In this document: positions 4,619-43,556 of the stretch, one piece after another | Layout: every line of letters starts with the position of its first letter | Position numbering within the stretch: position 1 is the first letter of the stretch | Assembly: GCA_965205975.1 (NCBI GenBank) | Contig: OZ242195.1 | Coordinates: forward strand, 3,030,656-3,094,655 | Direction: 5' to 3' | Length of the DNA stretch: 64,000 nt | From: Candidatus Latescibacterota bacterium | GTDB taxonomy: Bacteria > Latescibacterota > UBA2968 | Notes under the pieces: model-generated | What the model was told of the DNA's origin: nothing | Databases searched by the model: none | The model's input: only the letters and a program-made list of their open reading frames with translations | Program-made: the position numbers and the translations under genes

Positions 4619-5830
4619 TTAATCTGTGGTTGAATTTCTTGCCTCTAACCGCAACCGCTTTGCCTCCGTGCGGATCTTATCCATCTCCATCTTCATCCGC
4701 ACAATACCCTCCCAATGCGTATAATCTGGCGAATGGTGATACGCCGCCTTAAACGTGGTCGCGTGATAAAACTTGAACAACCTGAAAAACGCCTGTTCAA
4801 TCTCCGATGTATTTTCGTACAATTGCTGCCCACCCATTTCAAAAGCGTGCCCAACCACTGGATTCGCCGGACGGTCTTCGGGCATGGGATCCAGCGCATT
4901 TTCGTCGTACAACGCCTTAATCAACGCATAAGACTCCGCAACCAGCGCGTCTGCCTCGCGCTTAATCGCATCTGCACGCTCGAGGCTCTCGCGAGAAAAC
5001 CGATTGGAATGACACGGCGCACACACCTGCAACATCGCATTCCGATTCGCTTCAAACTCCTCTTTCGTCAACCGCTTCATCGCCAGATGCGGCAGAAAAT
5101 CCTCCTCGAGCGCGGCACCCGTAAACACCGCACCCAACCCGATATTGGGCACATGCCCGTGATCGCCATTGGGCATGTGGCACGTCACGCAACTCGGCGA
5201 CTTCTCGGCATCTCTATCATTATAATATAGAACACCGTGAATACTCGTTTTATACGCCTCCATCACGGGATGGTCCGGACCGCCGTGACAAACGGCACAG
5301 GCCTCGGGTTCTCGCGCAAGCGCAGCACTAAATTCATGACTCGGATGACAGGTATTGCACCCCCCCACGCTACCATCGGCAAACCGGGCACCAATGCTGT
5401 GACACCCCATACACCCCTCTTCTTGCATCGCGCGCGACTGCGCCAAAAAACGCGCATCCGACAACGCGGCCAGTTCTGCATCGGCATGCCCGCTCTCTGC
5501 AAATGCCTCGACCTCTTCTGCATGGCATTTACCACACATACCCGCCGACACCTGTCCCCGAACAGCAAAAACCGTCTCGTGGTTCTCCCCATGACAATCC
5601 GCACACCCCACATTGGCTCGAAAATGGGCACTCTCTCGCCACTGTTTGTCCATGCCCGGATCGATATTCCGATGGCATCCTTCGCACGACTGGTCACTCT
5701 GGATACGCCACAAAAAAACCGGATGTTCAACAAACTGAACCGCCTCCTCGGGCTGCAAAAAATAAAACACACCAAAGGCGCAACCCAATACCAGCACGCC
5801 AACACCGACAATTTTCATCCAGACCTTCAC
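4619..5830 (-). CDS. Membrane-anchored octaheme c-type cytochrome (HAO/ONR/OTR-like multiheme family).
   Basis: N-terminal TM helix IVGVGVLVLGCAFGVFYFL. Eight CxxCH motifs (CEGCH, CADCH, CGKCH, CMGCH, CNTCH, CAVCH, CVTCH, CAPCH), followed by a long helical C-terminal region. Confidence 0.7.
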   Translation of the reverse strand: MKVWMKIVGVGVLVLGCAFGVFYFLQPEEAVQFVEHPVFLWRIQSDQSCEGCHRNIDPGMDKQWRESAHFRANVGCADCHGENHETVFAVRGQVSAGMCGKCHAEEVEAFAESGHADAELAALSDARFLAQSRAMQEEGCMGCHSIGARFADGSVGGCNTCHPSHEFSAALAREPEACAVCHGGPDHPVMEAYKTSIHGVLYYNDRDAEKSPSCVTCHMPNGDHGHVPNIGLGAVFTGAALEEDFLPHLAMKRLTKEEFEANRNAMLQVCAPCHSNRFSRESLERADAIKREADALVAESYALIKALYDENALDPMPEDRPANPVVGHAFEMGGQQLYENTSEIEQAFFRLFKFYHATTFKAAYHHSPDYTHWEGIVRMKMEMDKIRTEAKRLRLEARNSTTD

Positions 5831-5982: not shown

Positions 5983-8784
5983 CTATTCACTCAATTCGCG
6001 CAACAAATCGCGCGCCTGCACATTGCCCGGCTCTCGCGCAATCACGCGCCGCAAAACCGCAACCGCGCTATCTCGCTGTCCACTTATGGCATAAGCCTGT
6101 CCCATAAACAACTCCAATCCCTGCGCTTCTGGCTCCAGTATCCACGCTTGCCGATATACAGACAGCGCACCTTCTATATCGCCGCGCTCCTGTAAAACCG
6201 TACCCAGCACAGTAAGCGCGGGCACATAAAAAGGATCGACAATCAACGCATCCAGCAAAAGGGATTCCGCAGCCTCTAACTCGCCCAAATCAGCGCGAAT
6301 AAGCCCCTGCATCGCATACACATCAGCGCGGTTGGCATGGTATTTCACCGCAACCTCAAAATGCGGCAACGCATCTGCGAGCGCACCCCGCACATAAACG
6401 CGGTGCCCGGCGTCAAAAGCCGAATCCGATTTTGCTTTCCCCGCTTCTCGCGCCTGCCTGCCCAATCCAAACGATCCCGTACCCGCATCCTCCATTTCCA
6501 ACGCCCTGTGGTATGCCGCGCGCGCCAATGCCCAATCGCCCGACAGCGCGTGTGCAGTCCCTCTTTCCACCCAATCGCCTATCGGCATCTCATCCCACTC
6601 ATAATCATCGCGCACCTCGCCATCCCCAGCCGAAAACGCCAATAACGCGAGTTGTCGAATCGCTGGCACGTATCCCGGCGCAACAGCAAGTGCGCGGCGA
6701 TAGGCTTCAATAGCACCTGCGCGATCCCCACTGCCCCACCGCGCATCCCCCACAGCCGTCTGCAAAACCGGCGAACCATCGCGCACATCGTCAAAAGCCG
6801 TATCTGCATAGCGCCCATGGTGCAACAGCAATGCACCTGTGCGCAACCGGGAAGTCAAATCGCTCTTCCCCTTCAGCAAACCCCTCATCTCCTCAAAACG
6901 CTCCTGTTTTCGCGCCAATCGCGCCAGATCCGCCGCGGTCTCCGGGTGCAGGGGATCTAACTTCGCAACAATCTCAAATTCCCGCCTCGCATCTTCAAAA
7001 AGCCCCTGCGCTTCATAGACCTGCCCCAAACTCTCGTGAAAACCCGGATCATCGCCCTGCACGCCATACACCACATCGCGATGCTCCTCAAGTGCCCTGC
7101 GAAACGCATCGCCCACAGCAGAACCATCCGGCAAATAGCCAATATCCATCAGCGCGAACGGTGCTTGCACCCGCACAATACGCGCCGAATCGGACAACGC
7201 ATTCAAAAGCGCGGGCAAACCGCGCACATCGCCCAAACGCCCCAGCGAAATCGCCGCCTTCATCCGCACCATCGCATGTGAGTCATCCATCGCCTCAACC
7301 AGCGCCGGCACCACACGCGCATCCCCCAAACCGCCCAGCAAAGACGCAGCCGCTGCGCGCCACACCGCACTCTCACCCCCGTCGTTTACCAACCGCGCCA
7401 ACGGCACCACACCACTGCCCTTTTGCCCATTGGCAATCGCTGTTGTACGCGCCACAATTTCGTCCTGATAATCGCCATACCACTGCTTTGCCCACGACGA
7501 AGCCCATTGTGCGGACTTATCGCCGTGACACTGATTGCACGCATTGGGCACGCCATTGACCACCGTATTTTCCGGTGCAGGAGATGCAATGCGATGATCC
7601 GTCAGATTCTCTCCCGTCACATAGTGATACGGCATGTGACACTGCACGCATTGATTGCCCACACTCCCCGCGCGGTGATGCCCATGCGCGACCGGATCGG
7701 CTGCAATGTCTTCATGACACGTCTCGCACAACCCCACGCCATTCCGATCCGCCACCAGATCGACATCGCGCGCTGTTCCGTGCGCGTCGTGGCATGTCGT
7801 ACACGTCAACTCGCCCTGAATATAACACGCACTCATCAAATGCAATGCTGCGGGATACAAATAAACCCTGGGCTGTCCATCGGGATAAAAAATCGCCTCG
7901 TCATCTGGCAACACAAGAGAATAATAATCGTAAAAGTTCTCACCTGGCAAATACCCGGTCGCCACAATTTCCTTGGCCGCATGACACTGGGCACACACCT
8001 CGACAGACCGTTCCTTATCCAGCGACCGCAATAACAGCAAATGCAACGGGGCATTGACCTGTCCGCGCGTCTCATCGTGTTTGCCCGACGGCCCATGGCA
8101 CGCCTCGCAATCAATACTCAGACTACCCACAGTCGTGCGATAAGACTGGGACGCCACATCGTAATGCTTTTGCACCCGGCTGGCATGGCAATCAAAACAG
8201 TGAAAATTCCAGGTGCGTCCCGCATTCGTCCAATAATAATAATCTTCTCTCGCCAAAGGCCGCGACTGAGCCACCACACCTCCTTCTTGAGCATCGACCC
8301 AATCATTTGTCGCGCCATCGTGATACAGAGGCAACACCTGCCAACGCCCATTGGGAAAAGCCGTCAAATAAGCCTGGTGCTGCCGCTTGCCAATCGCGTA
8401 ATCCACGCGGTATGCTCCAACGCGCCCTTCCTCATCTTCAGTCTCCATATAATACGCACCATCCTTGCGAAACATACGCGAACGCACACCGCCATACACA
8501 TGGGACACATTGTCAAAATCGCCCACAATCGTCGAATCACTCGGCACAGTCATCGCGACACTGTGCAAACTCTGCCGCCACTCGGCATACTTGTCGGTAT
8601 GGCAGATCGCGCACCGTTCCAACCCGGTAAACCCCGGCTCAGAAGCGCGCACCAAATTGGGCACCTCGCGCTCCCGGCTGCACGACGCAAACACCAGAAT
8701 CACCCATAAAAAGCAACCACAGATGAACACCGATAAACACCGATAAAAAGCAAGATACAAGATGTGAAATTTTCTGCACCGCAT
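5983..8784 (-). CDS. Multiheme (8x CxxCH) c-type cytochrome lipoprotein fused to PBS-lyase HEAT-like repeats and a C-terminal TPR array.
   Basis: Lipobox LVFASC. CxxCH motifs CAICH, CFDCH, CEACH, CAQCH, CTTCH, CETCH, CVQCH and CNQCH. Then HEAT-like AMVRMKAAISLGRLGDVRGLPALLNALSD repeats, then multiple TPR-like repeats to the C-terminus. 933 aa. Confidence 0.65.
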   Translation of the reverse strand: MRCRKFHILYLAFYRCLSVFICGCFLWVILVFASCSREREVPNLVRASEPGFTGLERCAICHTDKYAEWRQSLHSVAMTVPSDSTIVGDFDNVSHVYGGVRSRMFRKDGAYYMETEDEEGRVGAYRVDYAIGKRQHQAYLTAFPNGRWQVLPLYHDGATNDWVDAQEGGVVAQSRPLAREDYYYWTNAGRTWNFHCFDCHASRVQKHYDVASQSYRTTVGSLSIDCEACHGPSGKHDETRGQVNAPLHLLLLRSLDKERSVEVCAQCHAAKEIVATGYLPGENFYDYYSLVLPDDEAIFYPDGQPRVYLYPAALHLMSACYIQGELTCTTCHDAHGTARDVDLVADRNGVGLCETCHEDIAADPVAHGHHRAGSVGNQCVQCHMPYHYVTGENLTDHRIASPAPENTVVNGVPNACNQCHGDKSAQWASSWAKQWYGDYQDEIVARTTAIANGQKGSGVVPLARLVNDGGESAVWRAAAASLLGGLGDARVVPALVEAMDDSHAMVRMKAAISLGRLGDVRGLPALLNALSDSARIVRVQAPFALMDIGYLPDGSAVGDAFRRALEEHRDVVYGVQGDDPGFHESLGQVYEAQGLFEDARREFEIVAKLDPLHPETAADLARLARKQERFEEMRGLLKGKSDLTSRLRTGALLLHHGRYADTAFDDVRDGSPVLQTAVGDARWGSGDRAGAIEAYRRALAVAPGYVPAIRQLALLAFSAGDGEVRDDYEWDEMPIGDWVERGTAHALSGDWALARAAYHRALEMEDAGTGSFGLGRQAREAGKAKSDSAFDAGHRVYVRGALADALPHFEVAVKYHANRADVYAMQGLIRADLGELEAAESLLLDALIVDPFYVPALTVLGTVLQERGDIEGALSVYRQAWILEPEAQGLELFMGQAYAISGQRDSAVAVLRRVIAREPGNVQARDLLRELSE

Positions 8785-8796
8785 AACACGTCCTGA

Positions 8797-9648
8797 CTAA
8801 CGCGCCTGTACCTCTCCCCGCGCACACCGAAACCCAATATGGGCAAATATTTCGATATCAAAATCGTCGCGCGCCAGAGCTCGCTCTTCCATAATTAAAA
8901 CCGTACTCCGCACAAATACGCGGATACTGGGTTGTGGTGAAAACCAACTCCCACCGCGAAGCGTGCGATCTGGCCCATCTTCCATACCCGAATTTTGCAA
9001 ATTCACCGGATTGTGCCTGGGGCTATTTGCGTAATACGTATGCTGGTATTCATCCACCGTCCACTCCCACACATTGCCCGCCATATCCATCGCGCCATAA
9101 GGACTTGCACCATCTGGATAGCTGCCCACAGGCATGGGACCCGAACTGAAATTGAAATTACACAGCGATTCACTCGCAGGCTCATTGCCCCAGGGAAACA
9201 CGCGCCCATCCGTACCTGCAGCGGCCAACTCCCACTGCGCTTCACTCGGCAATTGCAAACCCGCCCACAGGCAATAATCCCGCGCCTGAGACCACAAAAC
9301 CCCCACCGCTGGCTGATCGGCTTGATCAAACCCCTCTAATCGAAAGTACTGCGGCTCTTCACTTCCCGTAGCCTCCGCATAAGCCAAATACTGCGCGTTG
9401 GTCACCTCGTATTTATCGATATAAAATGCGTCGAGCATCACCTCGTGTGGCGGGCGCTCATTGGAGGGACCATCGCTCGACCCCATCGTAAAAGTGCTGG
9501 CCGGAACAAAAACCTGCACATGCTCCGTACCCGCAGGCGTGGTCACAACAGATTCTTCAACCACATACTCTGGATCGGTGGGCTTGCCACAGGCCATGGC
9601 CAATGCAATACCCAAAACGCCGAACCGATAAATCGTTTTTGGTATCAT
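8797..9648 (-). CDS. Formylglycine-generating enzyme family protein (SUMF1/FGE-sulfatase domain), lipoprotein.
   Basis: Lipobox LAMACG. FGE-domain signatures MGSSDGPSNERPPHEVMLDAFYIDKYEVTNAQYLAY, GNVWEWT and RGGSWFS. Confidence 0.7.
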   Translation of the reverse strand: MIPKTIYRFGVLGIALAMACGKPTDPEYVVEESVVTTPAGTEHVQVFVPASTFTMGSSDGPSNERPPHEVMLDAFYIDKYEVTNAQYLAYAEATGSEEPQYFRLEGFDQADQPAVGVLWSQARDYCLWAGLQLPSEAQWELAAAGTDGRVFPWGNEPASESLCNFNFSSGPMPVGSYPDGASPYGAMDMAGNVWEWTVDEYQHTYYANSPRHNPVNLQNSGMEDGPDRTLRGGSWFSPQPSIRVFVRSTVLIMEERALARDDFDIEIFAHIGFRCARGEVQAR

Positions 9649-9712
9649 TGCATTCTCCTGCGACAGGCGCGAATCAACGAATCTGCGAAAGCATTTGGGT
9701 GGCGGGGTGGGG

Positions 9713-9766
9713 TTCGTCTATTCTCTATTCGTCTATTCGTCTATTCGTCTATTCGTCTATTCGTCC
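9713..9766. repeat. Tandem octamer repeat (TTCGTCTA / CGAATAGA unit, about 6 copies) in the FGE-YcaO intergenic region.
   Basis: Directly visible as ggttcgtctattctctattcgtctattcgtctattcgtctattcgtcc. Same family as the repeats at 26229-26262 and 33379-33402. Confidence 0.9.
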
Positions 9767-9768
9767 TC

Positions 9769-10779
9769 TCACATCCAAACAATATAATTGCCCGAATCCA
9801 CCATAATGCGATGCACATACGTCTCGATCATCGCGTGGTCCCGCTCGTGTTCTGTAGTCTCTAAGCTAAAAGGCCGCAACACCGGAATCTGCATCTCTGG
9901 ATCTGTCCAATCTTGCACATAAACCGAAGATTTCATACCACTCAACACCACCTGAATATCGGTTATCAAATCATCCGTAAAATGATTGGGCAAATCCCAC
10001 AGTGCAATCTCGGCATTAAAAGTCTGCAAATCAGATACAAACCGCGTCTTGTGACTCTGAACAGTCTCATTAAACGCCCGCTGCAACGCGATGCGCCCAT
10101 CCAAATGCGTACACGTACGCACCAGAGGCCCCAAATCTTTGGGACACACCACCGCGTGAACCGTCGTCACCTTCTCATTCTCCCCCGGCACGGCCACAGC
10201 CAGCATCTTTTCTGCAACGCGAGGAGCAAAATCCGTCAAATTTGGATCGATAAACTGCCGGTGTTCCAATCCCGGCCAATAAAAATGCCTCCCCACATCC
10301 AGGTGTTCGTGCATCTCCAGCAAACCGTGAAACACGCACTCCAGCACAGTATTGCCCGCCGAAACGCCATTTGCCGAATCATTCAAATGCGGCACATCCG
10401 AAGCCTTCATATCGGTCGGCACAAGTTCGACATCAGAAGTCAACTCATAAATCGGAGTCTCTCGCCCGCTCGCCAGCGCGTCAAAAAACGAAATGCGCTC
10501 GACCGCCTCTGCCATCGCCCCCGCCAGCACCTGCTGTTTGGAAAGCCCTTTGCCCATCGTGCGAAGCGCGATACCCTCCATCAGCGGCCCTTCGTATTTG
10601 CGAAACAGCGCCGACTGCACGTAATCCGTATAACAATCGGCAATCCACACCGTATCGTAAAACCGCCGCGCGCGCGTTTGAAACCGACACTTCTTGGACA
10701 GCGCCTCCCCGAACCGCTCAATAGTCTCTTCAAACGGAACCGTGCGATCGGCAATAACGATATGATGCGACTCACTCAT
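9769..10779 (-). CDS. YcaO-domain protein (ATP-dependent peptide backbone-modifying / cyclodehydratase superfamily), short standalone form.
   Basis: Contains the canonical YcaO nucleotide-binding signature ...RTMGKGLSKQQVLAGAMAEAVERISFFDA... (GKG...A.AEA.ER). 336 aa. Overlaps the upstream TPR gene by 4 nt (ATGA coupling). Confidence 0.6.
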   Translation of the reverse strand: MSESHHIVIADRTVPFEETIERFGEALSKKCRFQTRARRFYDTVWIADCYTDYVQSALFRKYEGPLMEGIALRTMGKGLSKQQVLAGAMAEAVERISFFDALASGRETPIYELTSDVELVPTDMKASDVPHLNDSANGVSAGNTVLECVFHGLLEMHEHLDVGRHFYWPGLEHRQFIDPNLTDFAPRVAEKMLAVAVPGENEKVTTVHAVVCPKDLGPLVRTCTHLDGRIALQRAFNETVQSHKTRFVSDLQTFNAEIALWDLPNHFTDDLITDIQVVLSGMKSSVYVQDWTDPEMQIPVLRPFSLETTEHERDHAMIETYVHRIMVDSGNYIVWM

Positions 10780-11999
10780 TGCGCCCGTGCCCGATTCATA
10801 TCTTCAACCGCCTCGGCAAACCGTCCCATTTGCCGAAACGTCTCCGCGCGGAGTTCTCGTGCCCATCCATTTTCGGGATCGATATCCAACGCCCGCGTAA
10901 AATCTGAAACCGCTGCCTCATACTGCCCCAGCATCCGTCGGGACTCCCCGCGATTTGCCCAAACCCACGCATCACCATCATCCATCATCACCGCCCGATC
11001 AAAATCGATCAGCGACGCCTCGGGATCATTTTCCATCCGCAACGCGACGCCGCGCCCCATAAGCGCCCACAGATGATCGGGAAAATTCTCCAGCACCCGT
11101 GTAAAATCGCGTATTGCTTCGGCACTTCGCCCCAATTGCCGCAACATATCACCCCGCGCGGCCCACAAATCCGGATCACCAGGCGCGACGACGAGTGCGC
11201 GGTCAAAATCCAAAAGCGCATCCTCCAATTGACCGATCTCCCGCAGCACCTCGCCCCGCCCGATCAACGCGCCCAGATGATCGGGCATAGCCTTCAAAGC
11301 CTCCCCAAACATCTCCATCGCAGCCCCAGCTTCATCAGCCTGTCGATAGACCTCCGCCCGTCCGGCAAACGCATCCGGATGCCCATTGCCCACCGCAATC
11401 GCCCGATCAAAATCGCCCGCCGCCGCATCGAAATGCCCCAACTGCATCAGCACATGCCCGCGGCTGATCAGCGCGCCAAAATAATCTGCATCCAACGCCA
11501 AAACCCGATTGAGATCCCCCAGTGCCTCCTCAAACCGCCCCATCTCGCGCAGGGTCTCCCCCCGGCTGGCAAGTGCCTGCGTATTGTCCGGATCGAGCGC
11601 AACAGCCTTTCCAAAGCTATCTATCGCCGCATCAAAATGCCCCATCAACCCGCAGGCAATCGCGCGATTACTCCACACCCATGGATCGTCTGGCGCCAGA
11701 GCGATTGCGCGGTCAAAATCCGCAATCGCCGCATCAAATTGTCCCAATTGTCCATAAGTAATCCCGCGATGCACAAACACAACGGCATCGCTATCACACG
11801 CCGCAATCGCCGCATCAAAACCCGCAACAGCCGCTTTCAGATCGCCACCATCGCGGTGCGCGATGGCGCGCTGAACCACAGCTTCAAAGTCATTTATAGA
11901 TAGAGGCATAAAAGAAAAAGTGGGAACCGTCAGACACCCAAAACGTAAACACAATGTAGATAAACCAAACCCCAAAATCAAGCGCAAACCCCGTGACAT
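10776..11999 (-). CDS. TPR-repeat protein, translationally coupled to the YcaO gene.
   Basis: About 9 tandem 34-aa TPR units (A..G.....G.....A...F..A). N-terminal hydrophobic segment. Confidence 0.65.
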   Translation of the reverse strand: MSRGLRLILGFGLSTLCLRFGCLTVPTFSFMPLSINDFEAVVQRAIAHRDGGDLKAAVAGFDAAIAACDSDAVVFVHRGITYGQLGQFDAAIADFDRAIALAPDDPWVWSNRAIACGLMGHFDAAIDSFGKAVALDPDNTQALASRGETLREMGRFEEALGDLNRVLALDADYFGALISRGHVLMQLGHFDAAAGDFDRAIAVGNGHPDAFAGRAEVYRQADEAGAAMEMFGEALKAMPDHLGALIGRGEVLREIGQLEDALLDFDRALVVAPGDPDLWAARGDMLRQLGRSAEAIRDFTRVLENFPDHLWALMGRGVALRMENDPEASLIDFDRAVMMDDGDAWVWANRGESRRMLGQYEAAVSDFTRALDIDPENGWARELRAETFRQMGRFAEAVEDMNRARAQ

Positions 12000-12113
12000 T
12001 TTGCACGCGATTTAGTATATTACAGCGGTCAGAGGTGAGACGACCCCACCTTATCCTTCTTGTATCTCAAAACGGGCGAGGCATGCCTCGCCCCTACATT
12101 ATGGAGGAACACC

Positions 12114-13415
12114 ATGAAACATCTGTGTATTTTTTCTATCGCCCTATTTCTGTGCTTATGCACAACAGCTTTTGCCCAGCCCAATGTGGGTGAAAAAGTA
12201 GGTGAATTTCAGCTCCAGGCCCTCGACGGCAGATCTTACGGCGTCAGTCATTCGGCCAATACCGTCTCCGTCCTGTTTTTTGTAGGCTACAACTGAGGAA
12301 CTTGCATAGGGGCGGGTCCCGCCTTTGAAAGAGATGTTCACCAACGGAACAAAGACACAGCCGGCGTACAAGTTCTCACACTCGACAGATACAATGGCAA
12401 CCGCGCACAGGCGCAATCCTATCTGACACAAGCCAGAGTAACGACGCCCATGCTCACCAATGCCTCTGGCGTCTCCGCAACTCTCGGCACTCGCAACGAA
12501 GATATCCTGGTCGTTGACCAGGGAGGTATCCTACGCCTCAGAACCACGGCAATCGCCACCGGCTCTCATCACCTGATCAACGCGCAAATCGATGCACTAC
12601 TCAACAAAACGCCTGTTATTTCTCTATTCCCAAACGAGCTTTACTTTGGCAGAACCCTTGTCGTGGGGCAATCCAAAACCGTAGAGTTTAAGATCGAAAA
12701 CACCGGTGCAGGTCCCCTCGAAATCACCGGATACTCGGCTCCCGAAGGCATCACAATGGAGCCATCCACCCTGACCATAGCGCCCGGCGAAAGCAAAACC
12801 GTACAAATCACCCTGACGCCAACACAGGCCGGCACATTATCGGGTAAAATCACCCTCCAGCACGGCGAACAAAGTGTTGGCACACTGGAAGTCCCTTTTC
12901 TCGACCTCACCATCGAAGCGCCCCAACTCCCGGTCATTTCACTGATTCAGGAAAACTTGAGCCTGGGTGAAATCGAAGTGGGCAAAGACGTCACCACAAC
13001 ATTCACCATCACAAATACTGGCTCGGGTCCACTCACCATCACAGACATCCAATCCAACATCGCGGGCATTGCATTTTCAGAAACCCAATTAACAGTGCCA
13101 CCCGGTCAATCTCAAGACATCACCGTGACTTTCAGTCCGCCAGCCGAAGGGCCTATCACCGGCACCATCGACGTATTTTCAGACGACCCTGAAAAAGCCT
13201 CAATCAGTCTGACCATCACCGGATCGGCCATCTTCATCCCCGCTGATCCACGCACCGACTTCGACGGTTCGCGCACCATTAACTTCGCGGACTTCCTCTT
13301 GTTCGTAAGTGCCTTTGGCACGACCGATGCAACCTTCGATCTCAACGGGTCCGGCACTGTTGACTTTCCCGACTTTCTCATATTCGTCCAGAACTTTGGG
13401 AAAACAATCAACTAA
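12114..13415 (+). CDS. Candidate selenoprotein. Secreted TlpA/redoxin-like thiol-disulfide oxidoreductase with U-G-T-C in place of CxxC, fused to ASH/Ig-like repeats and a C-terminal dockerin.
   Basis: ATG at 12114 with a GGAGGA RBS. Signal peptide MKHLCIFSIALFLCLCTTAFAQ. Redoxin fold ...VLFFVGYN-TGA(12294-12296)-GTCIGAGPAFERDVHQRNKDTAGVQVLTLDRY.... The frame stays open through the single TGA into the listed ORF 12450..13415. A GC hairpin GGCGG-GUC-CCGCC lies about 14 nt downstream of the TGA. Three GxGPLxI Ig-like repeats. Two dockerin Ca-binding repeats DFDGSRTINFADFLLF / DLNGSGTVDFPDFLIF. Confidence 0.55.
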
Positions 13416-13477
13416 AAAAGTAGGGACAACCACTCGGGGTTGTCCCTACCCTCTGTAGTTATCCCGCACTATTTTCC

Positions 13478-14179
13478 ATGTCCCACCGCCAAACGCTCAT
13501 CAACGCATTCAAACGCATCCTCGAAATATCGGATCACGACCATCTCTATTTGCCCTTTCAACGCGACAGCAAATTGCGGGCAAAACACTTTCCCGGCGCA
13601 GGGTCTAAAATCGGGCGAAAAAAACTCATCGACGCATATCTCCTTGAATTTGGCGACACAAACCCCGACGAAAAATTGCTCCAACACGCCACCTATCCCT
13701 GGATTCACGGGTACGACGCCAGCCTCACGCATATTCTCGATGACCTCCGAAAACACGAAAAAAAAGCACCCGCCGAACTTTCTACGGACCGAAGACGCGC
13801 ACTCGAAAAGAAATTTACCCGCACGGGTGCCGAAGAAATCTCTGCCTTCTGGAGCGTATATGCCGCCGCCGACAACAGCTATCGCAAAAGCGTCATAGAA
13901 ATGCTAGCCCGCGTCAAACCACCCGAAACGGCCCCCCCGACCGTTCAGCCTACACAAAAGCCCACAACTCGCGCCCCCTCTCAAATAGAACCCACCACAC
14001 AGTCGGGATATGCTTTGATGGGCGCGCTTATCTTCTTTGTCCCCACCTTTATATTTACTATAATACAATATTGGCGACTCCCAAATGAAAGCCACTATAT
14101 CGCCTTATCAATCGCCGGATTTTTTGGGATAGTCACACTCATCTTCCTCATCGACTACTTGCGTAAACGCAACACATGA
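13478..14179 (+). CDS. Hypothetical membrane protein (two C-terminal TM helices).
   Basis: 233-aa ORF with a Pro/Thr-rich linker and C-terminal hydrophobic helices ALMGALIFFVPTFIFTII and IALSIAGFFGIVTLIFLI. No recognisable family. Confidence 0.4.
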   Translation: MSHRQTLINAFKRILEISDHDHLYLPFQRDSKLRAKHFPGAGSKIGRKKLIDAYLLEFGDTNPDEKLLQHATYPWIHGYDASLTHILDDLRKHEKKAPAELSTDRRRALEKKFTRTGAEEISAFWSVYAAADNSYRKSVIEMLARVKPPETAPPTVQPTQKPTTRAPSQIEPTTQSGYALMGALIFFVPTFIFTIIQYWRLPNESHYIALSIAGFFGIVTLIFLIDYLRKRNT

Positions 14180-14261
14180 CCACAATGAACAAAGGCACCT
14201 ACCCCCGGCCCCTTCCTGAGAGGAAGGGGAGAAAACCTACCATCCCTCGCTTCTTGCCCTT

Positions 14262-14292
14262 CATCTGCGTCCATCTGCGTCATCTGCGGATA
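14262..14292. repeat. Tandem 9/10-mer repeat (CATCTGCGT)n ending in CATCTGCGGATA, immediately 5' of the ATG at 14293.
   Basis: tcatctgcgtccatctgcgtcatctgcggata. The same element recurs at 29235-29270, 36130-36172 and 63014-63052. Confidence 0.9.
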
Positions 14293-16071
14293 ATGATCTC
14301 CACCGTCCTCTTTCTCACCCTCCCGCTTCGCTCCTGGGCAGTTCCCCTTCAGATCGGCGACAGCCTCAATGATTTTGCCCTTGCCGACCTCAACGGCTCG
14401 TCCGTTACCCTCAGTGATTTATCTCAGAACCGCGCACTCGTCATCATCTTCAGTTCCGTCGTCTGCCCCGCCTCGCTAAAATACGACATACACCGCACAC
14501 AAATACACGAACAATATGCCCCCAGAGGTGTACACCTGATATCTGTAAATGCCAATTTTAACGAAACCGACAAAGACATCAAAGAACACTACGCCCAAAA
14601 CCCCGTACCCTTCGCTGTCCTGCGCGACCCGCACAACAAACTCGCCGATCATCTCGGCGCAACACATACCCCCCATGCCTTTCTCTTTGACGCCCAACGC
14701 CGCCTGCGCTACAAGGGCGAAATCGACAACGGCTGGGGCGTACCCGAAGACACGACCTCGCGCGGTTTATGGGACGCCCTCGATGCACTGCTCGCCAACC
14801 GCGAAATTATCAACACCAACCTGCCCAGTTTTGGCTGTGAAATCAGACGCACACCCCGGCCAACAACTGTGGCGAACACCTCTACCCCAACATTTTATCG
14901 CGACATCTTGCCCCTGCTCCAAAACCGCTGCCAGAACTGCCATCGCCCTGGCGGTATCGGTCGCGTACCCTTTTTCGACTACACAGAAGTACTCGCCTGG
15001 GCCTATCAGATGCGCGACTCCATCGAAGCCCGCATCATGCCGCCCTGGAAAGCGCGCCCAGAATACGGCGACTTCAAAAATTCCCGCAGACTCACAGACG
15101 CCGAAATACACACCTTCGCGCAATGGGTCAACAGCGGCCTGCCAGAGGGCGATCCCTCCGACCAGCCCGAACCTCTCACATTTGCCAAAAGCTGGACCCT
15201 GGGCACGCCCGATCTGATCCTCGAACCCGAAGCACCCTATTCACTCGAAGCCGTGGGGCGCGATGAATACCGCTGCTTTGTCTTGCCCACAAAACAGGAC
15301 ACAGGCAACTACGTATCGGCTATTGAAGTCCTGCCCGGAGAACGCGAAGTCGTCCACCACGTCAGCGTGTACATAGACATCTCTGGCAAAGCGCGCCTGC
15401 AACAGAAAAACGCATCATCGCCGGGCTACCCTTGCTTTGGCGGAATTGGCGTGCCCATCTACGAATCCCTGGGCGGTTGGGCACCCGGCAACACCCCCTT
15501 TGTCCTTCCAGATGGCACAGGCCGCGATTTACCGCCCAACAGCGACATCATACTTCAGATCCACTATCACAAAATTGGTCGCGCCGTAAAAGATCACTCC
15601 CGACTGGGAATCTACTTTGCCAAAAAACCCGTCCAGAAACAGCTCAGAGAAGAAGCCATCAACAGCCGTTTGCTCTTCATTCCGCCCAACATCAAACGAC
15701 ACAGAGTAACCGGAGCAATCACCATCACCCGCGACCAGCACCTGCTCGGCATCTTGCCGCACATGCACCTGCTCGGCACAGAAATGAAAATAACCGCAAC
15801 CTATCCCGACGGCACACAACACCCCTTAATATGGGTTAAACCCTATGACTTCAACTGGCAAGAAACCTATGTGTACAAAACACCCGTCGCACTCCCGCGC
15901 GGTACCCGCATCGCGCTCGAAGCCTTTTACGACAACTCTGCCGACAACCCCCGAAATCCCAACAATCCACCCAGGCTGGTGCGATGGGGCGAAAAATCAA
16001 CCGATGAAATGTGTACCGCATTTCTCTATGTCACGCACGATGATGAAAATTTAGAAACAGGTAAGAAATGA
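14293..16071 (+). CDS. Secreted three-part fusion: AhpC/TSA-redoxin-like domain, c-type cytochrome (CxxCH, PSCyt1-like) domain, and PHM/DBH-like copper type II monooxygenase domain.
   Basis: Start chosen at MISTVLFLTLPLRSWA (signal peptide). The listed ORF start 14176 would read through the tandem repeat. Redoxin-like LNDFALADLNGSSVTLSDL...VIIFSSVVCPAS. Heme site CQNCHRPGG...IMPPW. Copper-site-like motifs VHHVSVY (HH), IHYH, LPHMHLLGTEMK (HxH) and STDEMC (Met ligand), arranged as in the PHM CuH/CuM sites. Confidence 0.55.
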   Translation: MISTVLFLTLPLRSWAVPLQIGDSLNDFALADLNGSSVTLSDLSQNRALVIIFSSVVCPASLKYDIHRTQIHEQYAPRGVHLISVNANFNETDKDIKEHYAQNPVPFAVLRDPHNKLADHLGATHTPHAFLFDAQRRLRYKGEIDNGWGVPEDTTSRGLWDALDALLANREIINTNLPSFGCEIRRTPRPTTVANTSTPTFYRDILPLLQNRCQNCHRPGGIGRVPFFDYTEVLAWAYQMRDSIEARIMPPWKARPEYGDFKNSRRLTDAEIHTFAQWVNSGLPEGDPSDQPEPLTFAKSWTLGTPDLILEPEAPYSLEAVGRDEYRCFVLPTKQDTGNYVSAIEVLPGEREVVHHVSVYIDISGKARLQQKNASSPGYPCFGGIGVPIYESLGGWAPGNTPFVLPDGTGRDLPPNSDIILQIHYHKIGRAVKDHSRLGIYFAKKPVQKQLREEAINSRLLFIPPNIKRHRVTGAITITRDQHLLGILPHMHLLGTEMKITATYPDGTQHPLIWVKPYDFNWQETYVYKTPVALPRGTRIALEAFYDNSADNPRNPNNPPRLVRWGEKSTDEMCTAFLYVTHDDENLETGKK

Positions 16072-16072
16072 C

Positions 16073-17668
16073 ATGAAAAAATTCCTCAAGCTCAGCATCC
16101 TGATAACCCTGATCCACGCGCCTATCTACGCCCAATGGAACATCGCCGTATTGCCACATGAAAACACACTGGGCGATCCGCAGTGGAATTGGCTCTCCGC
16201 AGCCATTGTCGAAGGATATATCAACGCCTATTACCATGTACCGAAAATACATGCCGTTGACGAAGAATATCTGCGCCACAAACTCGGAGACACGCCAGTA
16301 AGTTCCTCTGATCTCGCACAAAAATTAGACATCCACCTGATTTTAAGTGGGCGTTACGACATTGCGGGAGGGCGCATCCAAATCGAAACCGACATGCTTC
16401 ATACAACCACAGGCGAAGTCATCGAAACCTTTACAGGTCAGGCATCCACCTCTACGCCGCTCGACGCCATATTGCCCGTACTCTACGCCATTGCAGATCG
16501 GTTAAACGCGACCCTGACACCCCATGAAAAAACCCGCCTGCAAATCCCCATGTTTCACGATCCACAAGCGCTTCACATCGCAACCGAAAGCATGGTGGCA
16601 CTGTATCGGGCACTGCGACAATCTCCCATTGACGACACGCTACTTACACAGGCTGAAGGCGGTCTAAAACGCGCCGTGCAACGCGATGCCAAAAGCGCGA
16701 TGCCCCATTATTATCTCGGGCGCATACACGAAACGCGCAACAAAATATCAGAAGCGGAAAACGCCTATCGCAACGCCCTCAAAATCGACTTTGAACACGT
16801 TGCAGCGCGCTATCGCCTATCTCTGCTCCTCAAAAAGCGCGGACACACAGAAGAAGCCATGAACGAACTCGAACAAGCCCTCCAGCAGTCGCCCATAAAC
16901 CCCGATATTCAGGCAGCCCTATCCAGCATGTTTTTCAATCAATACGCTCAAACCTTTGAAACAATCACCTCACAACTTCGCCAGGCCATCCAGGCCAATC
17001 CCGATGACCCCATTGCCTGTTATGAATTGGCCAATGCCTATAACGAACTCGACCGCATCGACGAAGCCACAAACTATTACCATCAAGCCCTACAACGCGA
17101 TTCCACATTCGCCGATGCACACTTCAAACTCGGCCTGATTGCACACCGCAAAGGGGAACACGAAAAAGCCGTTGACCAACTTCAAAAAGCCGCAGCGCAC
17201 AACACCCAATTCACCCGCGTCCATTTTCGCCTCGGCACCATCCTCTACCTCATCGAGCGCTATGACGCAGCGATCAAAGCCTTTTCAAAAGCCATCGAAG
17301 TCGAACCCAATTACGTCATCCCGCGCTATCACCTCGGCCTGAGCTATCTCGCAAACGCGCAGACAGACAGTGCTTATGAAGCCTTTCAGAAATACGCAGA
17401 ACTCACCTCAGACGATCACCGCCCGTATTTCCAAATGGCCGAGATTGCACGGCAAAAAGGAGAAACCGAACGCGCAATTAACGGATATATGCGCGCAATC
17501 GCCATCAGCCCTGTCCACGTACCGTCACACCTCCGTCTGGGCTATCTCCATGCCGAGCACCAGCGCTTTGACCTCGCTGTCCAGCAACTGCAAACCGCGC
17601 TGCGCCTGCAACCCGATCATCCGGATGCCAAAAAAATCCTCGCCGACATCCAGAAATGGACACCGTGA
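16073..17668 (+). CDS. Secreted TPR-repeat protein.
   Basis: Signal peptide MKKFLKLSILITLIHAPIYAQ. Multiple TPR units (AYRNALKIDFEHVAARYRLSLLLKKRGHTEEA etc.). Confidence 0.6.
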   Translation: MKKFLKLSILITLIHAPIYAQWNIAVLPHENTLGDPQWNWLSAAIVEGYINAYYHVPKIHAVDEEYLRHKLGDTPVSSSDLAQKLDIHLILSGRYDIAGGRIQIETDMLHTTTGEVIETFTGQASTSTPLDAILPVLYAIADRLNATLTPHEKTRLQIPMFHDPQALHIATESMVALYRALRQSPIDDTLLTQAEGGLKRAVQRDAKSAMPHYYLGRIHETRNKISEAENAYRNALKIDFEHVAARYRLSLLLKKRGHTEEAMNELEQALQQSPINPDIQAALSSMFFNQYAQTFETITSQLRQAIQANPDDPIACYELANAYNELDRIDEATNYYHQALQRDSTFADAHFKLGLIAHRKGEHEKAVDQLQKAAAHNTQFTRVHFRLGTILYLIERYDAAIKAFSKAIEVEPNYVIPRYHLGLSYLANAQTDSAYEAFQKYAELTSDDHRPYFQMAEIARQKGETERAINGYMRAIAISPVHVPSHLRLGYLHAEHQRFDLAVQQLQTALRLQPDHPDAKKILADIQKWTP

Positions 17669-37354: not shown

Positions 37355-37513
37355 CTATCTCCTCAAACAAGGTCCTCTGATAACTCATTAACTGACATTA
37401 CGCATATATCGCCTGTCATCCCCATTTCATAGGCATGACAAGATATAGCGTTGCTGCGTAAGGTCAAATATATATTTTCGGAATCACCGTCGAAAACATG
37501 AGAAGTATAAACC

Positions 37514-37548
37514 AAAAAACCACGCCCAAAGGACGTGGTTTTTTATTT
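37514..37548. terminator. Bidirectional rho-independent terminator (A6-CCACGCCCAAAGGACGTGG-T6).
   Basis: GC stem with one mismatch, flanked by an A-run and a T-run. It sits just outside the left end of the IS element. Confidence 0.5.
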
Positions 37549-37619
37549 ATGAACTTGACCTGTTTTAGTTGATAACAGAATTAAACCCACTGGTCGAGTC
37601 CAAAAAGTTCTGTAAAATA

Positions 37620-38878: not shown

Positions 38879-39363
38879 GGTGACTTTTTTTCCTTTTTAC
38901 AGAAATTTAAGGACGCTATCTCCACTTCGTTGATCATGCGATAAACCACATCTCCAGATTTGTTGCGATCATAAAAACTCAATGGCAACTGGATCAAGTG
39001 GTCGAAAAGATGGCTCCTTATATCCAGCATCATGCGATTGTTTATCCAAGCAAATAGATAGTTTGAGCAAAAACCAATGATGATATTGCCGACTGTAACG
39101 CCCAGGAGCAGAAGCAAAATAAATATCAACAGCTCATAATCTTCATTTGGAAAAACATCATCAATGATAATTTTCATGATATAGGGAAAAGCCAACGAGC
39201 TAACAGTCCCCAGGATCATGAGAACAAAAACAATGCTTTGGTGTATCCAATAAGGTTTCAGAAATTTCAAGAAATGATAAAAGACATGTCCCTGCTTAGA
39301 GAGATTGAAAATGGCTGATATGACTGGTTGTTTGTTCTTCATATTCACCCGTGATGTAAACAA
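38875..39363 (-). pseudogene. Truncated ABC exporter gene. Only the N-terminal transmembrane domain fragment remains, and the reading frame runs into the IS256 right end.
   Basis: MKNKQPVISAIFNLSKQGHVFYHFLKFLKPYWIHQSIVFVLMILGTVSSLAFPYIMKIIIDDV...LPLSFYDRNKSGDVVYRMINEVE is the first about 150 aa of a type-I ABC exporter TMD. The TAG stop is formed by the IS terminal sequence ...GGAGCTAC. No ATPase domain follows. Confidence 0.7.
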
Positions 39364-39384
39364 CTCAAAGTGTGCGTATGCATA

Positions 39385-42074: not shown

Positions 42075-42124
42075 TGGTTACCCTTGGCAATCAAGAGACG
42101 CTTGATCTCAGCTAACTTTCGCCA

Positions 42125-43219: not shown

Positions 43220-43556
43220 GAGGATAATCCTTTCTTATCGTTGGCTCGGTGCCCCCAGTCTGTTTACCGAGAACACCAAGCCAATCTTGAGCCTATCAAG
43301 CTCGGTTGCACACTTTTTTCTATGATTAAGATCAGCAATTAAGAGTACACCTAAAGCTCACTCAGAAGAAAGAAGCCAGTCTAAAGTTCATAGAAAAGAA
43401 AAATGATCGAATTCACTTGAGATAGAACTTTTGCCCAGAGATGTGTGGGTATCTGTCAATCCAGGCGACTTCGATTCTTTTTATGAATTAGCAATACCTT
43501 AGACTGAATGATGGGTAGCTAAAGATGCTCTCAAGCATCAGAGATTCCAGCGCTAA

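What the first reader, a model, noticed from the sequence alone, without database searches (positions are those of the whole stretch)
12114..13415. In-frame TGA at the CxxC position of a secreted TlpA-like redoxin: candidate selenocysteine protein fused to Ig-like repeats and a dockerin
Reading 12114..13415 continuously gives a signal peptide and a complete TlpA/redoxin fold. The only stop, TGA at 12294, falls exactly where the N-terminal active-site Cys belongs (...FFVGYN-U-GTC...). The remainder of the thioredoxin fold and a further 320 aa continue in the same frame.

A GC-rich hairpin with a G-U-containing loop (GGCGG-GUC-CCGCC) begins 14 nt after the TGA, which is compatible with a bacterial SECIS.

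The C-terminus carries two textbook dockerin Ca-binding repeats, preceded by three GxGPLxI Ig-like (ASH/choice-of-anchor-type) repeats. This domain combination is unusual for a thiol-disulfide oxidoreductase.
Basis: partly seen in the sequence, partly recalled or inferred. Interest (0 to 1): 0.8.

Follow-up and report, generated by a model that had tools for sequence, protein, structure and literature searches.

The report
Secreted TlpA-like selenoprotein, mis-annotated as truncated
The in-frame TGA is very probably a real selenocysteine codon in a secreted thiol-disulfide oxidoreductase of uncultured Latescibacterota; this is a familiar kind of selenoprotein with an unusual Ig-like plus dockerin-like tail, and public databases annotate it as a truncated protein.

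Summary
Window 12114..13415 (+) reads as 433 codons with a single stop, TGA at 12294-12296, in the context FFVGYN-TGA-GTC.

- **TGA conservation.** The TGA sits at the same codon in 23 Latescibacterota genome loci and 24 metagenome contigs, down to about 32% protein identity. Both sides evolve as coding sequence in one frame.
- **Cys homologues.** Full-length homologues of about 440 aa with the same architecture carry Cys there (FLGYN-C-APC).
- **SECIS-like hairpin.** The hairpin at 12307-12327 has a 9-bp stem, a GUC loop 19 nt after the UGA, and an energy of -10.7 kcal/mol. It meets all four published bacterial SECIS criteria. It shows compensatory changes across clades, is more stable than synonymous recodings in Sec forms, and is absent from Cys forms.
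- **Fold.** A pLDDT 85 model and PDB matches (2ls5, DsbE, ResA) place the Sec at the first CxxC position of a TlpA/ResA-like fold.

Not shown: selA, selB, selD and tRNA-Sec. None is in the window or in about 2 Mb of related loci, and whole genomes could not be scanned.

Verdict: a genuine but unannotated member of the known UxxC thioredoxin-fold selenoproteins, with a new domain architecture. Interest is moderate.

The parts
12103..12108 (+). Shine-Dalgarno-like GGAGGA, 5 nt upstream of the start codon
   Evidence: Read directly from the sequence. No comparable motif precedes ATG 12450.
12114..13415 (+). Complete selenoprotein gene: 433 codons plus TAA, with one in-frame TGA
   Evidence: Full-length Cys homologues of 439-442 aa share the architecture.
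12114..12176 (+). Signal peptide (aa 1-21, ...CTTAFA|QP)
   Evidence: Hydrophobic N-terminus with an AxA-type site, read from the sequence. pLDDT is below 50 for residues 1-20. It is conserved as a signal-like segment in homologues. The cleavage site is inferred.
12183..12611 (+). TlpA/ResA/DsbE-like thioredoxin-fold domain (aa ~24-166) with the redox motif U61-G-T-C64
   Evidence: Pfam AhpC-TSA E=1.7e-5, 25.2 bits against a cut-off of 26. Profile against PDB: 2ls5 E=7.7e-14, 3kcm, 3hdc and ResA. Foldseek: 2ls5, 3gl3 (DsbE) and 1su9 (ResA), with target TM-scores of 0.77-0.81. hhalign against ResA gives 95.6% probability.
12294..12296 (+). Sec-UGA codon (residue 61)
   Evidence: TGA is conserved at the same codon in 23 genome loci and 24 metagenome contigs. 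TGT or TGC occupies this codon in the four Cys-form loci whose DNA was read here, and Cys is at this position in the fifth (L170 / P0050), seen in its translation.
12307..12327 (+). Bacterial SECIS-like hairpin: 9-bp stem UAGGGGCGG/CCGCCUUUG with apical loop GUC at 12316-12318, 19 nt after the UGA
   Evidence: It meets all four bSECIS model criteria at -10.7 kcal/mol (criteria from PMC13188914). Covariation is shown, and the synonymous-recoding control.
12618..12917 (+). Ig-like domain 1 (ASH / HYDIN-VesB / choice-of-anchor D type, aa ~169-268)
   Evidence: Pfam and NCBIfam matches, a beta-sandwich in the model, and Foldseek matches to ASH-domain proteins.
12930..13232 (+). Ig-like domain 2 (aa ~273-373)
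   Evidence: HYDIN_VesB_CFA65-like_Ig E=9e-27 over aa 273-370. choice_anch_D scores 103.5 bits against a cut-off of 45.
13239..13403 (+). C-terminal dockerin-like paired Ca-binding loop-helix module (aa ~376-430; DFDGSRTINFADFLLF and DLNGSGTVDFPDFLIF)
   Evidence: EF-hand_1 scores 30.3 bits (passes). Dockerin_1 scores 18.5 bits (below 22.9) but covers profile positions 2-51 of 57. The model has helices at 391-399 and 418-427. The same module ends many other Latescibacterota proteins.
13420..13449 (+). 12-bp hairpin just after the TAA stop (GTAGGGACAACC...GGTTGTCCCTAC), a possible terminator without a T-run
   Evidence: Read directly from the sequence. Not tested further.

Best explanation
Window 12114-13415 is a single gene for a 433-residue secreted selenoprotein of a Candidatus Latescibacterota bacterium.

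**Recoding.** UGA-61 is recoded to selenocysteine. The hairpin 10 nt downstream (12307-12327) has its apical GUC loop 19 nt from the UGA. It has the geometry of a bacterial SECIS element, which would recruit SelB-GTP-Sec-tRNASec to the ribosome.

**Active site.** Sec becomes the N-terminal, nucleophilic residue of a U-G-T-C redox motif. The motif sits at the start of helix alpha-1 of a TlpA/ResA/DsbE-like thioredoxin fold.

**Localisation.** After signal-peptide-dependent export, two Ig-like (ASH / choice-of-anchor D) domains act as spacers. A C-terminal Ca-binding dockerin-like module tethers the enzyme to an extracytoplasmic or surface scaffold.

**Activity.** There it acts as a thiol-disulfide (selenylsulfide) oxidoreductase on exported partner proteins. 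The most plausible partners are the redox proteins encoded in the conserved neighbourhood: a redoxin / cytochrome c / Cu-monooxygenase-like fusion and a multihaem cytochrome.

**Shown:** the single reading frame; the Sec/Cys pairing; deep conservation of the TGA; the structure, covariation and Sec-form specificity of the hairpin; the fold and domain architecture; the conserved synteny.

**Inferred:** actual Sec insertion (machinery not seen), the direction of redox chemistry, the docking partner, and the substrates.
For: **One reading frame**
- There is one frame and one stop, with a Shine-Dalgarno sequence at the upstream ATG only.
- Among 16 close orthologues, third-position differences dominate both upstream (662/559/1435) and downstream (833/623/1468) of the TGA. 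Synonymous codon differences collapse when the frame is shifted: 983 in frame against 290 and 299.

**Sec/Cys pairing and conservation**
- Cys homologues P0050, P0057, P0058, P0065, P0067, P0071 and P0072 (439-442 aa, 41-45% identity, same architecture) read FLGYN-C-APC-VGAGP where the window has FVGYN-TGA-GTC-IGAGP.
- TGA is at the same codon in 23 genome loci down to about 32% identity and in 24 of 24 family members recovered by a TGH pattern scan of metagenomes.
- The Cys forms make one clade nested among Sec forms in a neighbour-joining tree.
- A Sec form and a Cys form sit in tandem in L170.

**Hairpin**
- The window hairpin meets all four bSECIS criteria. So do 29 of 44 unique Sec forms and 0 of 4 Cys forms, against 3.5% of background codon positions.
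- Against synonymous recodings, Sec forms average z = -1.9 and 51% have p<0.05, while Cys forms average z = +0.9.
- Compensatory pairs include GC<->UA and AU<->GC. One of them is a synonymous Ala-GCG/Pro-CCC to GCU/CCA double change. The covariation score exceeded 500 of 500 shuffles and all slid controls in both registers.

**Not a reassigned codon**
- TGA is the ordinary stop of 18 of 39 long ORFs in the window.

**Fold**
- The pLDDT 85 model places residue 61 just before helix 63-79.
- PDB relatives are 2ls5, 3gl3 and 1su9.

**Synteny**
- The unk233 gene, the redoxin-Cu fusion, and the TPR, YcaO, FGE and multihaem genes are conserved around the Sec gene, in part even in clades where unk233 is only 31-37% identical.
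Against: - No selA, selB, selD or tRNA-Sec was found in the 64-kb window or in about 2 Mb of related loci. The only SelA-like hit is a DgaE-family lyase. This sample is a small part of 5-6 Mb genomes, so the absence carries little weight, but the machinery remains unshown.
- No other selenoprotein gene was found in the held sequence.
- The window's own hairpin is not individually significant. It scores z = -1.05 against dinucleotide shuffles and p = 0.08 against synonymous recodings. The support comes from the family as a whole.
- Part of the stem is favoured by the conserved G/A-A-G/A-P codons.
- 15 of 44 Sec forms fail the strict perfect-stem version of the criteria.
- The hairpin register differs by 2 nt between clades.
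- There is no expression or protein evidence.
Confidence: 0.85

Rival explanations
1. There are two separate products, as public annotation has it. A 60-residue N-terminal peptide ends at the TGA, and an independent 321-aa 'choice-of-anchor D domain-containing protein' starts at ATG 12450.
For: Gene callers and NCBI annotate the orthologues as 321-322 aa proteins starting at that Met (P0001-P0024; names on P0014 and P0015). The ORF listing gives 12450..13415.
Against: - Codons 62-112 lie between the TGA and Met113. They evolve under the same coding constraint, in the same frame, as the flanks.
- Those codons encode helix alpha-1, strand beta-2 and helix alpha-2 of a thioredoxin fold, which the split would cut in two.
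- Cys homologues are uninterrupted.
- There is no Shine-Dalgarno sequence before ATG 12450.
- In other clades the callers pick different, arbitrary starts just after the TGA: 371-aa products beginning M/V-C-[IL]-GAGP.
Confidence: 0.03
2. The UGA is read through or recoded, but not as selenocysteine. Cys or Trp could be inserted by a suppressor or Sec-like tRNA without canonical selenium incorporation.
For: The Sec machinery was not observed. Recoding of Sec codons to Cys by tRNASec-like tRNAs has been reported in some bacteria; this rests on my own knowledge and was not checked here.
Against: - The hairpin meets the SelB-type bSECIS model.
- The hairpin is maintained by compensatory change specifically in the TGA forms and is lost in the Cys forms.
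- If Cys were the product, a TGY codon would serve, as it does in the Cys clade.
Confidence: 0.08
3. The TGA is a pseudogene-type nonsense mutation, or an assembly or sequencing error.
For: None beyond the presence of a stop codon.
Against: - The TGA is identical in 47 other loci from independent assemblies and several clades.
- Purifying selection acts on both sides of it.
Confidence: 0.01
4. TGA is reassigned genome-wide (genetic code 4 or 25).
For: None.
Against: - 18 of 39 long ORFs in the window end in TGA.
- Several orthologues of this very gene terminate with TGA.
- No other credible in-frame TGA exists in the window.
Confidence: 0.005

Closest known systems
[quoted passage not shown]
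   Same: - Sec replaces the first Cys of a CxxC motif in an AhpC-TSA / Redoxin / TlpA-like fold.
- Cys homologues exist.
- A bSECIS hairpin lies immediately downstream of the UGA.
- The Pfam similarity is weak, as for Prx-like 2 and 3.
   Different: - None of those descriptions includes Ig-like (ASH / choice-of-anchor D) domains or a dockerin-like tail. The Prx-like 3 fusion reported in GOS has a Cys-rich 'Unknown_3' domain with a CxxC motif, which is unlike these Ig domains.
- No NCBIfam selenoprotein model covers the N-terminal domain.
- The host phylum, Latescibacterota, is not mentioned with selenocysteine in the searched literature.
- I could not compare directly with exemplar sequences, because accessions cannot be retrieved with these tools.
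TlpA / ResA / CcmG (DsbE) extracytoplasmic thiol-disulfide reductases; closest solved structures 2ls5 (B. thetaiotaomicron putative PDI), 3gl3 (C. tepidum DsbE) and 1su9 (B. subtilis ResA)
   Same: - The fold matches, with target TM-scores of 0.77-0.81.
- An N-terminal beta-hairpin precedes the thioredoxin core.
- The redox motif sits at the N-terminus of helix alpha-1.
- The protein is exported.
   Different: - Sec takes the place of Cys.
- The near-universal cis-Pro position aligns with Glu129 ('NEDILVVD') in the alignments to 3kcm and ResA. 2ls5 also lacks a Pro in the corresponding stretch.
- The enzyme is tethered by Ig-like and dockerin-like modules rather than by a membrane anchor.
- No CcdA or DsbD gene lies next to it.
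Type I dockerin modules of cellulosomal proteins (PF00404)
   Same: - Two tandem segments of about 22 residues, each a D-x-D/N-x-S/D-G...D Ca-binding loop followed by a helix.
- The module lies at the extreme C-terminus.
- The match covers Dockerin_1 profile positions 2-51 of 57.
   Different: - The scores are below the curated thresholds.
- The cargo is a redox enzyme, not a glycoside hydrolase.
- No cohesin partner was identified.
- The module is a common C-terminal tag in Latescibacterota and Gemmatimonadota proteins.
OS_HP2 family (seleno)protein (NF041425)
   Same: It shares the Ig-like (choice-of-anchor D-like) domain: 61.9 bits over aa 284-371.
   Different: The score is below the cut-off of 100. 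The match covers the Ig domain only, not the Sec site. This is not the same selenoprotein family.

Membership tests
Bacterial selenoprotein gene (SelB/bSECIS-dependent UGA recoding) | An in-frame UGA conserved among orthologues, with coding conservation on both sides | tested here: met
   TGA sits at the same codon in 23 genome loci and 24 metagenome contigs, down to about 32% identity. The third-position bias is the same upstream and downstream, and the synonymous signal is lost when the frame is shifted.
Bacterial selenoprotein gene (SelB/bSECIS-dependent UGA recoding) | Cys-containing homologues whose Cys aligns with the UGA | tested here: met
   Seven full-length Cys proteins plus loci L018, L020, L170, L172 and L173. 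PDB relatives carry CxxC there.
Bacterial selenoprotein gene (SelB/bSECIS-dependent UGA recoding) | A bSECIS hairpin with a 3-9 nt apical loop, G in the first two loop positions, a 4-16 bp stem, 16-37 nt from the UGA, and MFE <= -7.5 kcal/mol (PMC13188914, Fig. 2) | tested here: met
   The window has loop GUC, a 9-bp stem, 19-nt spacing and -10.7 kcal/mol. 29 of 44 Sec forms pass, against 0 of 4 Cys forms and a 3.5% background. Covariation is shown, and the synonymous-recoding control.
Bacterial selenoprotein gene (SelB/bSECIS-dependent UGA recoding) | selA, selB, selD and tRNA-Sec present in the same genome | not testable with these tools
   None is in the window or in about 2 Mb of held loci. 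The SelA-like hit is DgaE family.
Bacterial selenoprotein gene (SelB/bSECIS-dependent UGA recoding) | Selenium demonstrably incorporated (75Se labelling or mass spectrometry) | not testable with these tools
   Needs an experiment; the organisms are uncultured MAGs.
TlpA/ResA/DsbE-like thiol-disulfide oxidoreductase (cd02966; AhpC-TSA/Redoxin clan) | A thioredoxin fold with an N-terminal beta-hairpin and the redox motif at the N-terminus of helix alpha-1 | tested here: met
   The model has strands 33-36, 41-43 and 51-57, residue U61, then helix 63-79 and the rest of the fold. Foldseek matches 2ls5, 3gl3 and 1su9. hhalign against ResA gives 95.6%.
TlpA/ResA/DsbE-like thiol-disulfide oxidoreductase (cd02966; AhpC-TSA/Redoxin clan) | Score above the curated family threshold | tested here: inconclusive
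   AhpC-TSA scores 25.2 bits against 26. Redoxin scores 16.7 against 26.6. NCBIfam ResA scores 13.4 against 170. A family profile reaches 2ls5 at E=7.7e-14.
TlpA/ResA/DsbE-like thiol-disulfide oxidoreductase (cd02966; AhpC-TSA/Redoxin clan) | A conserved cis-proline loop facing the active site | tested here: not met
   By alignment, the Pro of 3kcm (GVPETFVID) and of ResA (LPTTFLI) pairs with Glu129 of 'RNEDILVVD'. The model coordinates were not inspected.
Type I dockerin (PF00404) | Duplicated Ca-binding loop-helix segments at the C-terminus | tested here: met
   Two D-x-D/N-x-S-G...D-F-x-D-F-L-x-F segments, with helices at 391-399 and 418-427.
Type I dockerin (PF00404) | Score above the curated threshold | tested here: not met
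   Dockerin_1 scores 18.5 against 22.9. dockerin_GC scores 23.8 against 29.
Type I dockerin (PF00404) | A cognate cohesin-bearing scaffold in the genome | not tested
   I did not search for cohesins.
Previously catalogued Sec-containing Prx-like/TlpA-like subfamilies (Prx-like 1-3, thiol-disulfide isomerase-like, UGC-containing TlpA) | Sequence-level membership in one of those named subfamilies | not testable with these tools
   - The exemplars (for example MGB1650493.1, HEU0032618.1, MDE0950781.1) cannot be fetched by accession.
- The motif here is U-G-T-C (UxxC), not 'UGC'.
- No NCBIfam selenoprotein model matches the N-terminal domain.

The most novel reading that the evidence does not exclude
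This may be the first surface-docked extracellular selenoenzyme. A Sec-dependent TlpA-like reductase would be displayed through a dockerin-like module as the dedicated redox partner of a conserved Latescibacterota gene cluster whose pathway is unknown. That cluster encodes YcaO, TPR proteins, a multihaem cytochrome, an FGE-like protein, and a redoxin / cytochrome c / Cu-monooxygenase fusion. On this reading, selenium availability would gate an extracytoplasmic oxidative or peptide-modifying process in this uncultured phylum. A further non-excluded twist is that the UGA is decoded without the canonical Sec machinery.
Probability: 0.12. Interest if true: 0.7.

Novelty: new member of a known kind. 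Interest (0 to 1): 0.4.

Why it matters
**Annotation.** Public databases carry dozens of orthologues as 321-322 aa 'choice-of-anchor D domain-containing proteins'. The entire catalytic domain is missing from those records. Recognising the Sec codon restores a redox enzyme and reveals a family that is predominantly Sec-containing: 47 TGA loci beside the window, against a handful of Cys loci.

**Biology.**
- It adds Latescibacterota to the Sec-using lineages, pending the machinery check.
- It shows a selenoprotein built for extracytoplasmic or surface tethering. Related Cys forms in other phyla end in what look like T9SS-type sorting tails.
- It links the gene to a conserved cluster of exported redox proteins.

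**Limits.** It does not change what is known about how Sec is encoded or what UxxC redoxins do.

Tried and rejected
- **tRNA-Sec.** ARAGORN on the window and 60 loci found only tRNA-Met and tRNA-Asn.
- **Sec machinery by tblastn.** The only hits were SelA-like at 26-28% identity in L173, L020 and L018. NCBIfam shows these are DgaE-family PLP lyases (TIGR01437 207 bits; selA 51 bits against 267.9). They are not Sec machinery.
- **Other selenoprotein genes.** Scans for other in-frame TGA or redox-motif genes in the window and all loci found nothing credible beyond this family. The second cluster was a stop-codon read-through artefact at the TPR/MIP gene junction.
- **Metagenome scan with an alignment.** I replaced it with a degenerate DNA pattern, of which 24 of 91 matches were true family members.
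- **Rfam.** The scan of 12000-13500 gave only chance-level matches. That result was expected, because bacterial SECIS elements share structure rather than sequence.
- **Fold search.** Foldseek with the whole model was dominated by ASH/Ig hits. The redoxin matches appear from rank 36.
- **Single-sequence folding.** The 61-nt region gave z = -1.05, which is uninformative on its own.
- **Neighbour annotation.** NCBIfam on the neighbouring genes gave no hit above threshold that names the cluster.
- **Literature.** Searches for Latescibacteria or Latescibacterota with selenocysteine or dockerin found nothing relevant.
Full report
**Observation**

Window 12114..13415 (+) translates as 433 codons with one internal stop, TGA at 12294-12296 (codon 61), in the context ...VSVLFFVGYN*GTCIGAGPAFE.... 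Under the standard code the region splits into a 60-codon ORF and a 321-aa ORF that starts at ATG 12450. A GGAGGA Shine-Dalgarno motif precedes ATG 12114, and nothing comparable precedes ATG 12450. TGA is the ordinary stop of 18 of 39 long ORFs in the window, so the codon is not reassigned genome-wide.

**Domains**

With Cys placed at position 61, Pfam gives:
- a marginal AhpC-TSA match: 25.2 bits against a cut-off of 26, aa 25-136;
- two strong ASH / HYDIN-VesB Ig-like domains;
- EF-hand-type matches at the C-terminus.

NCBIfam gives choice-of-anchor D (103.5 bits) and a sub-threshold GC-type dockerin. No selenoprotein-specific model matches the N-terminal domain. Scanned alone, the C-terminal 64 residues pass EF-hand_1 (30.3 bits). 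They miss Dockerin_1 (18.5 against 22.9), although the match covers profile positions 2-51 of 57.

An AlphaFold model built on 18 sequences (mean pLDDT 85) shows four parts:
- a disordered signal peptide;
- a thioredoxin fold at aa ~27-165, with residue 61 immediately before helix 63-79;
- two beta-sandwich domains, at 169-268 and 275-373;
- two loop-helix units at the C-terminus.

Foldseek matches the N-terminal domain to 2ls5 (a putative PDI of B. thetaiotaomicron), 3gl3 (DsbE) and 1su9 (ResA), with target TM-scores of 0.77-0.81. A family profile reaches 2ls5 at E=7.7e-14, with the Sec column on the first Cys of CGVC.

There are two Ig repeats, not three, and the dockerin is dockerin-like rather than textbook.

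**Homologues and the Sec/Cys pair**

A protein search returned many orthologues at 84-96% identity. All were called as 321-322 aa proteins covering 74% of the query, which means truncation at the same Met. NCBI names them 'choice-of-anchor D domain-containing protein'. A second group of 367-371 aa products starts at or within two residues of the second Cys (M/V-C-[IL]-GAGP or M-AAGP). A third group of 439-442 aa proteins covers the whole query at 41-45% identity and reads FLGYN-C-APC-VGAGP.

The genome scan placed the family in Candidatus Latescibacterota MAGs, many of them closed chromosomes. The window is about 93% identical in protein to OZ244847.1. Reading the DNA shows:
- 23 genome loci carry TGA at exactly this codon, across clades as low as about 32% identity;
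- two loci carry TGT;
- a degenerate pattern that allowed TGA, TGC or TGT recovered 24 further family members from metagenomes, all with TGA.

Every member has a signal peptide, the redoxin domain, one to three Ig-like domains and the dockerin-like tail. In a neighbour-joining tree the Cys forms are a single clade nested among Sec forms. One contig carries a Sec form and a Cys form in tandem.

**Coding constraint across the TGA**

Among 16 close orthologues, differences by codon position are 662/559/1435 upstream of the TGA and 833/623/1468 in the 51 codons between the TGA and Met113. Synonymous codon differences fall from 983 to about 295 when the frame is shifted. This rules out a pseudogene, a sequencing error, and the two-gene annotation.

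**The hairpin**

The stem UAGGGGCGG/CCGCCUUUG (12307-12327) closes a GUC loop 19 nt after the UGA, at -10.7 kcal/mol.

The published bacterial SECIS model requires four things (PMC13188914, Fig. 2):
- a 3-9 nt apical loop and a 4-16 bp stem;
- G in the first two loop positions;
- 16-37 nt of spacing from the UGA;
- MFE <= -7.5 kcal/mol.

The window element meets all four. With a strict perfect-stem test:

| Set | Pass |
|---|---|
| Unique Sec forms | 29 of 44 |
| Cys forms | 0 of 4 |
| Arbitrary codon positions in these genes | 3.5% |

The stem overlaps the conserved G/A-A-G/A-P codons, so I compared each sequence with 500 synonymous recodings. Sec forms average z = -1.9 (51% with p<0.05; mean -11.2 kcal/mol). 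Cys forms average z = +0.9 (mean -5.1 kcal/mol). The window alone gives p = 0.08, so the support is at family level.

Two registers of the hairpin exist, with loop centres 21 and 23 nt from the U of the UGA. Both show compensatory changes:
- GC:11 / UA:5 and AU:9 / GC:8 in one register;
- GC:12 / UA:6 and AU / CG / UA / GC in the other.

One of these is a pair of synonymous third-position changes: Ala GCG to GCU with Pro CCC to CCA. The covariation scores were reached by 0 of 500 shuffles and exceeded all slid controls. Rfam has no match, which is what I expected.

**What could not be shown**

No tRNA-Sec, SelA, SelB or SelD is present in the window or in 2.06 Mb of fetched loci. The SelA-like genes near the Cys forms are DgaE-family lyases. 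No other selenoprotein gene turned up in the held sequence. These samples are a small fraction of 5-6 Mb genomes.

**Context**

The gene is flanked by hairpins and sits in a conserved neighbourhood.
- Upstream and divergent: a TPR protein, a YcaO-domain protein, an FGE-sulfatase-like protein, and a multihaem cytochrome with TPR and HEAT repeats.
- Downstream: a 233-aa protein of no known family with two C-terminal TM helices; a 631-aa fusion of a redoxin domain (VVCPAS), a CxxCH haem motif and a Cu2_monoox_C domain; then another TPR protein.

Much of this neighbourhood (unk233, TPR, YcaO, and in some the multihaem and FGE genes) recurs next to the Sec gene in two more distant clades. In one clade (L017, L111, L170) unk233 is 54-58% identical. 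In the other (L021, L027, L121, L165, L169) it is only 31-37% identical. The redoxin-Cu fusion was detected only in the nearer of the two.

An exhaustive HMMER search with the post-TGA part found only 53 representatives at E<=1e-3. Many of them are truncated calls. Several are Cys-containing relatives from other lineages that end in what look like T9SS-type sorting tails (the tail identification rests on my knowledge of the motif). This suggests the subfamily as a whole works outside the cytoplasm.

In the alignments to 3kcm and ResA, the usual cis-Pro position of the thioredoxin fold pairs with Glu129. 2ls5 likewise has no Pro in the corresponding stretch.

**Mechanism**

The best-supported reading is standard SelB/SECIS-dependent insertion of Sec as the attacking residue of a U-G-T-C motif in an exported TlpA-like oxidoreductase. 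Two Ig-like spacers hold the enzyme, and a Ca-dependent dockerin-like module anchors it. The neighbouring exported redox proteins are its likely clients.

- Shown: the frame, the Sec/Cys pairing, the hairpin, the fold, the architecture and the synteny.
- Inferred: Sec insertion itself, the redox direction, the docking partner and the substrates.

**Comparison with what is known**

UxxC selenoproteins of the Prx-like, TlpA-like and redoxin type are among the commonest bacterial selenoproteins. They have been catalogued since 2005-2008. Domain fusions of such proteins have been noted, but not with Ig-like or dockerin modules. No searched paper links Latescibacteria with selenocysteine.

The finding is therefore a new, currently mis-annotated member, arguably a new subfamily and architecture, of a well-known kind. 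It is real and tidy, but it would not surprise a specialist.

Noticed in passing
window 4000-36000, and 36000-60000: The + strand has a very strong compositional skew: GC skew -0.23 to -0.29 and AT skew +0.11 to +0.18. The skew stays the same although the genes switch strand at about 12 kb. GC content drops from about 0.54 to 0.42-0.47 between 36 and 60 kb.
   Followed up: no
window 5983-11999 (-) and 13478-17668 (+); also L001-L019, L021, L027, L111, L121, L170: A conserved gene cluster surrounds the selenoprotein gene. It comprises a multihaem cytochrome c with TPR and HEAT repeats, an FGE-sulfatase-like protein, a YcaO-domain protein, TPR proteins, an unknown 233-aa protein and a redoxin-Cu-monooxygenase-like fusion. 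Most of the set is retained in more distant clades, where unk233 is 31-58% identical; the redoxin-Cu fusion was seen only in the nearer clade (L017, L111, L170). No curated family names the system.
   Followed up: partly
window 14176-16071 (+): A 631-aa fusion protein combines three parts: a signal or TM segment with a redoxin domain that has a single-Cys C-P-A-S motif, a CxxCH haem-binding motif (CQNCH), and a C-terminal copper type II ascorbate-dependent monooxygenase-like domain.
   Followed up: partly
window 13478-14179 (+): A 233-aa protein has no Pfam or NCBIfam match. It has a soluble N-terminal part, a Pro/Thr-rich linker and two C-terminal TM helices. It is the most faithfully co-conserved neighbour of the selenoprotein gene.
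   Followed up: partly
window aa 125-135 of the selenoprotein (about 12486-12518): In the alignments to 3kcm and ResA, the cis-proline position that is nearly universal in thioredoxin-fold oxidoreductases pairs with Glu ('RNEDILVVD'). The solved relative 2ls5 also has no Pro in the corresponding stretch.
   Followed up: partly
L170 2671-5612: A Sec form, called as separate 62-aa and 371-aa products, and a Cys form (P0050, 440 aa) of the family lie in tandem on one contig, within the same YcaO / redoxin-Cu synteny.
   Followed up: partly
L173 6563-7747; L020 about 5141-5827; L018 about 8207-8752: A SelA-related PLP enzyme (DgaE family, TIGR01437) lies a few kb from the Cys-form paralogues in three loci. 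It is not selenocysteine synthase.
   Followed up: yes
window 34862-47652 (-): Three tandem pairs of a MacB-like FtsX permease (826-833 aa) and a 364-394 aa protein lie in the lower-GC part of the window. One permease (39573-42074) and one partner (42125-43219, a six-bladed beta-propeller, DUF5128) were scanned with Pfam. The other two pairs are inferred from ORF sizes.
   Followed up: partly
P0132, P0139, P0128: Cys-containing relatives of the redoxin domain from other lineages end in tails that look like T9SS C-terminal sorting domains. Some contain two or three redoxin domains in tandem. This suggests the subfamily is generally surface-displayed.
   Followed up: no
Genome-contig scan: The VDFxDFL[TIA]F dockerin-like C-terminal module ends a large number of unrelated proteins in Latescibacterota and Gemmatimonadota MAGs.
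   Followed up: no
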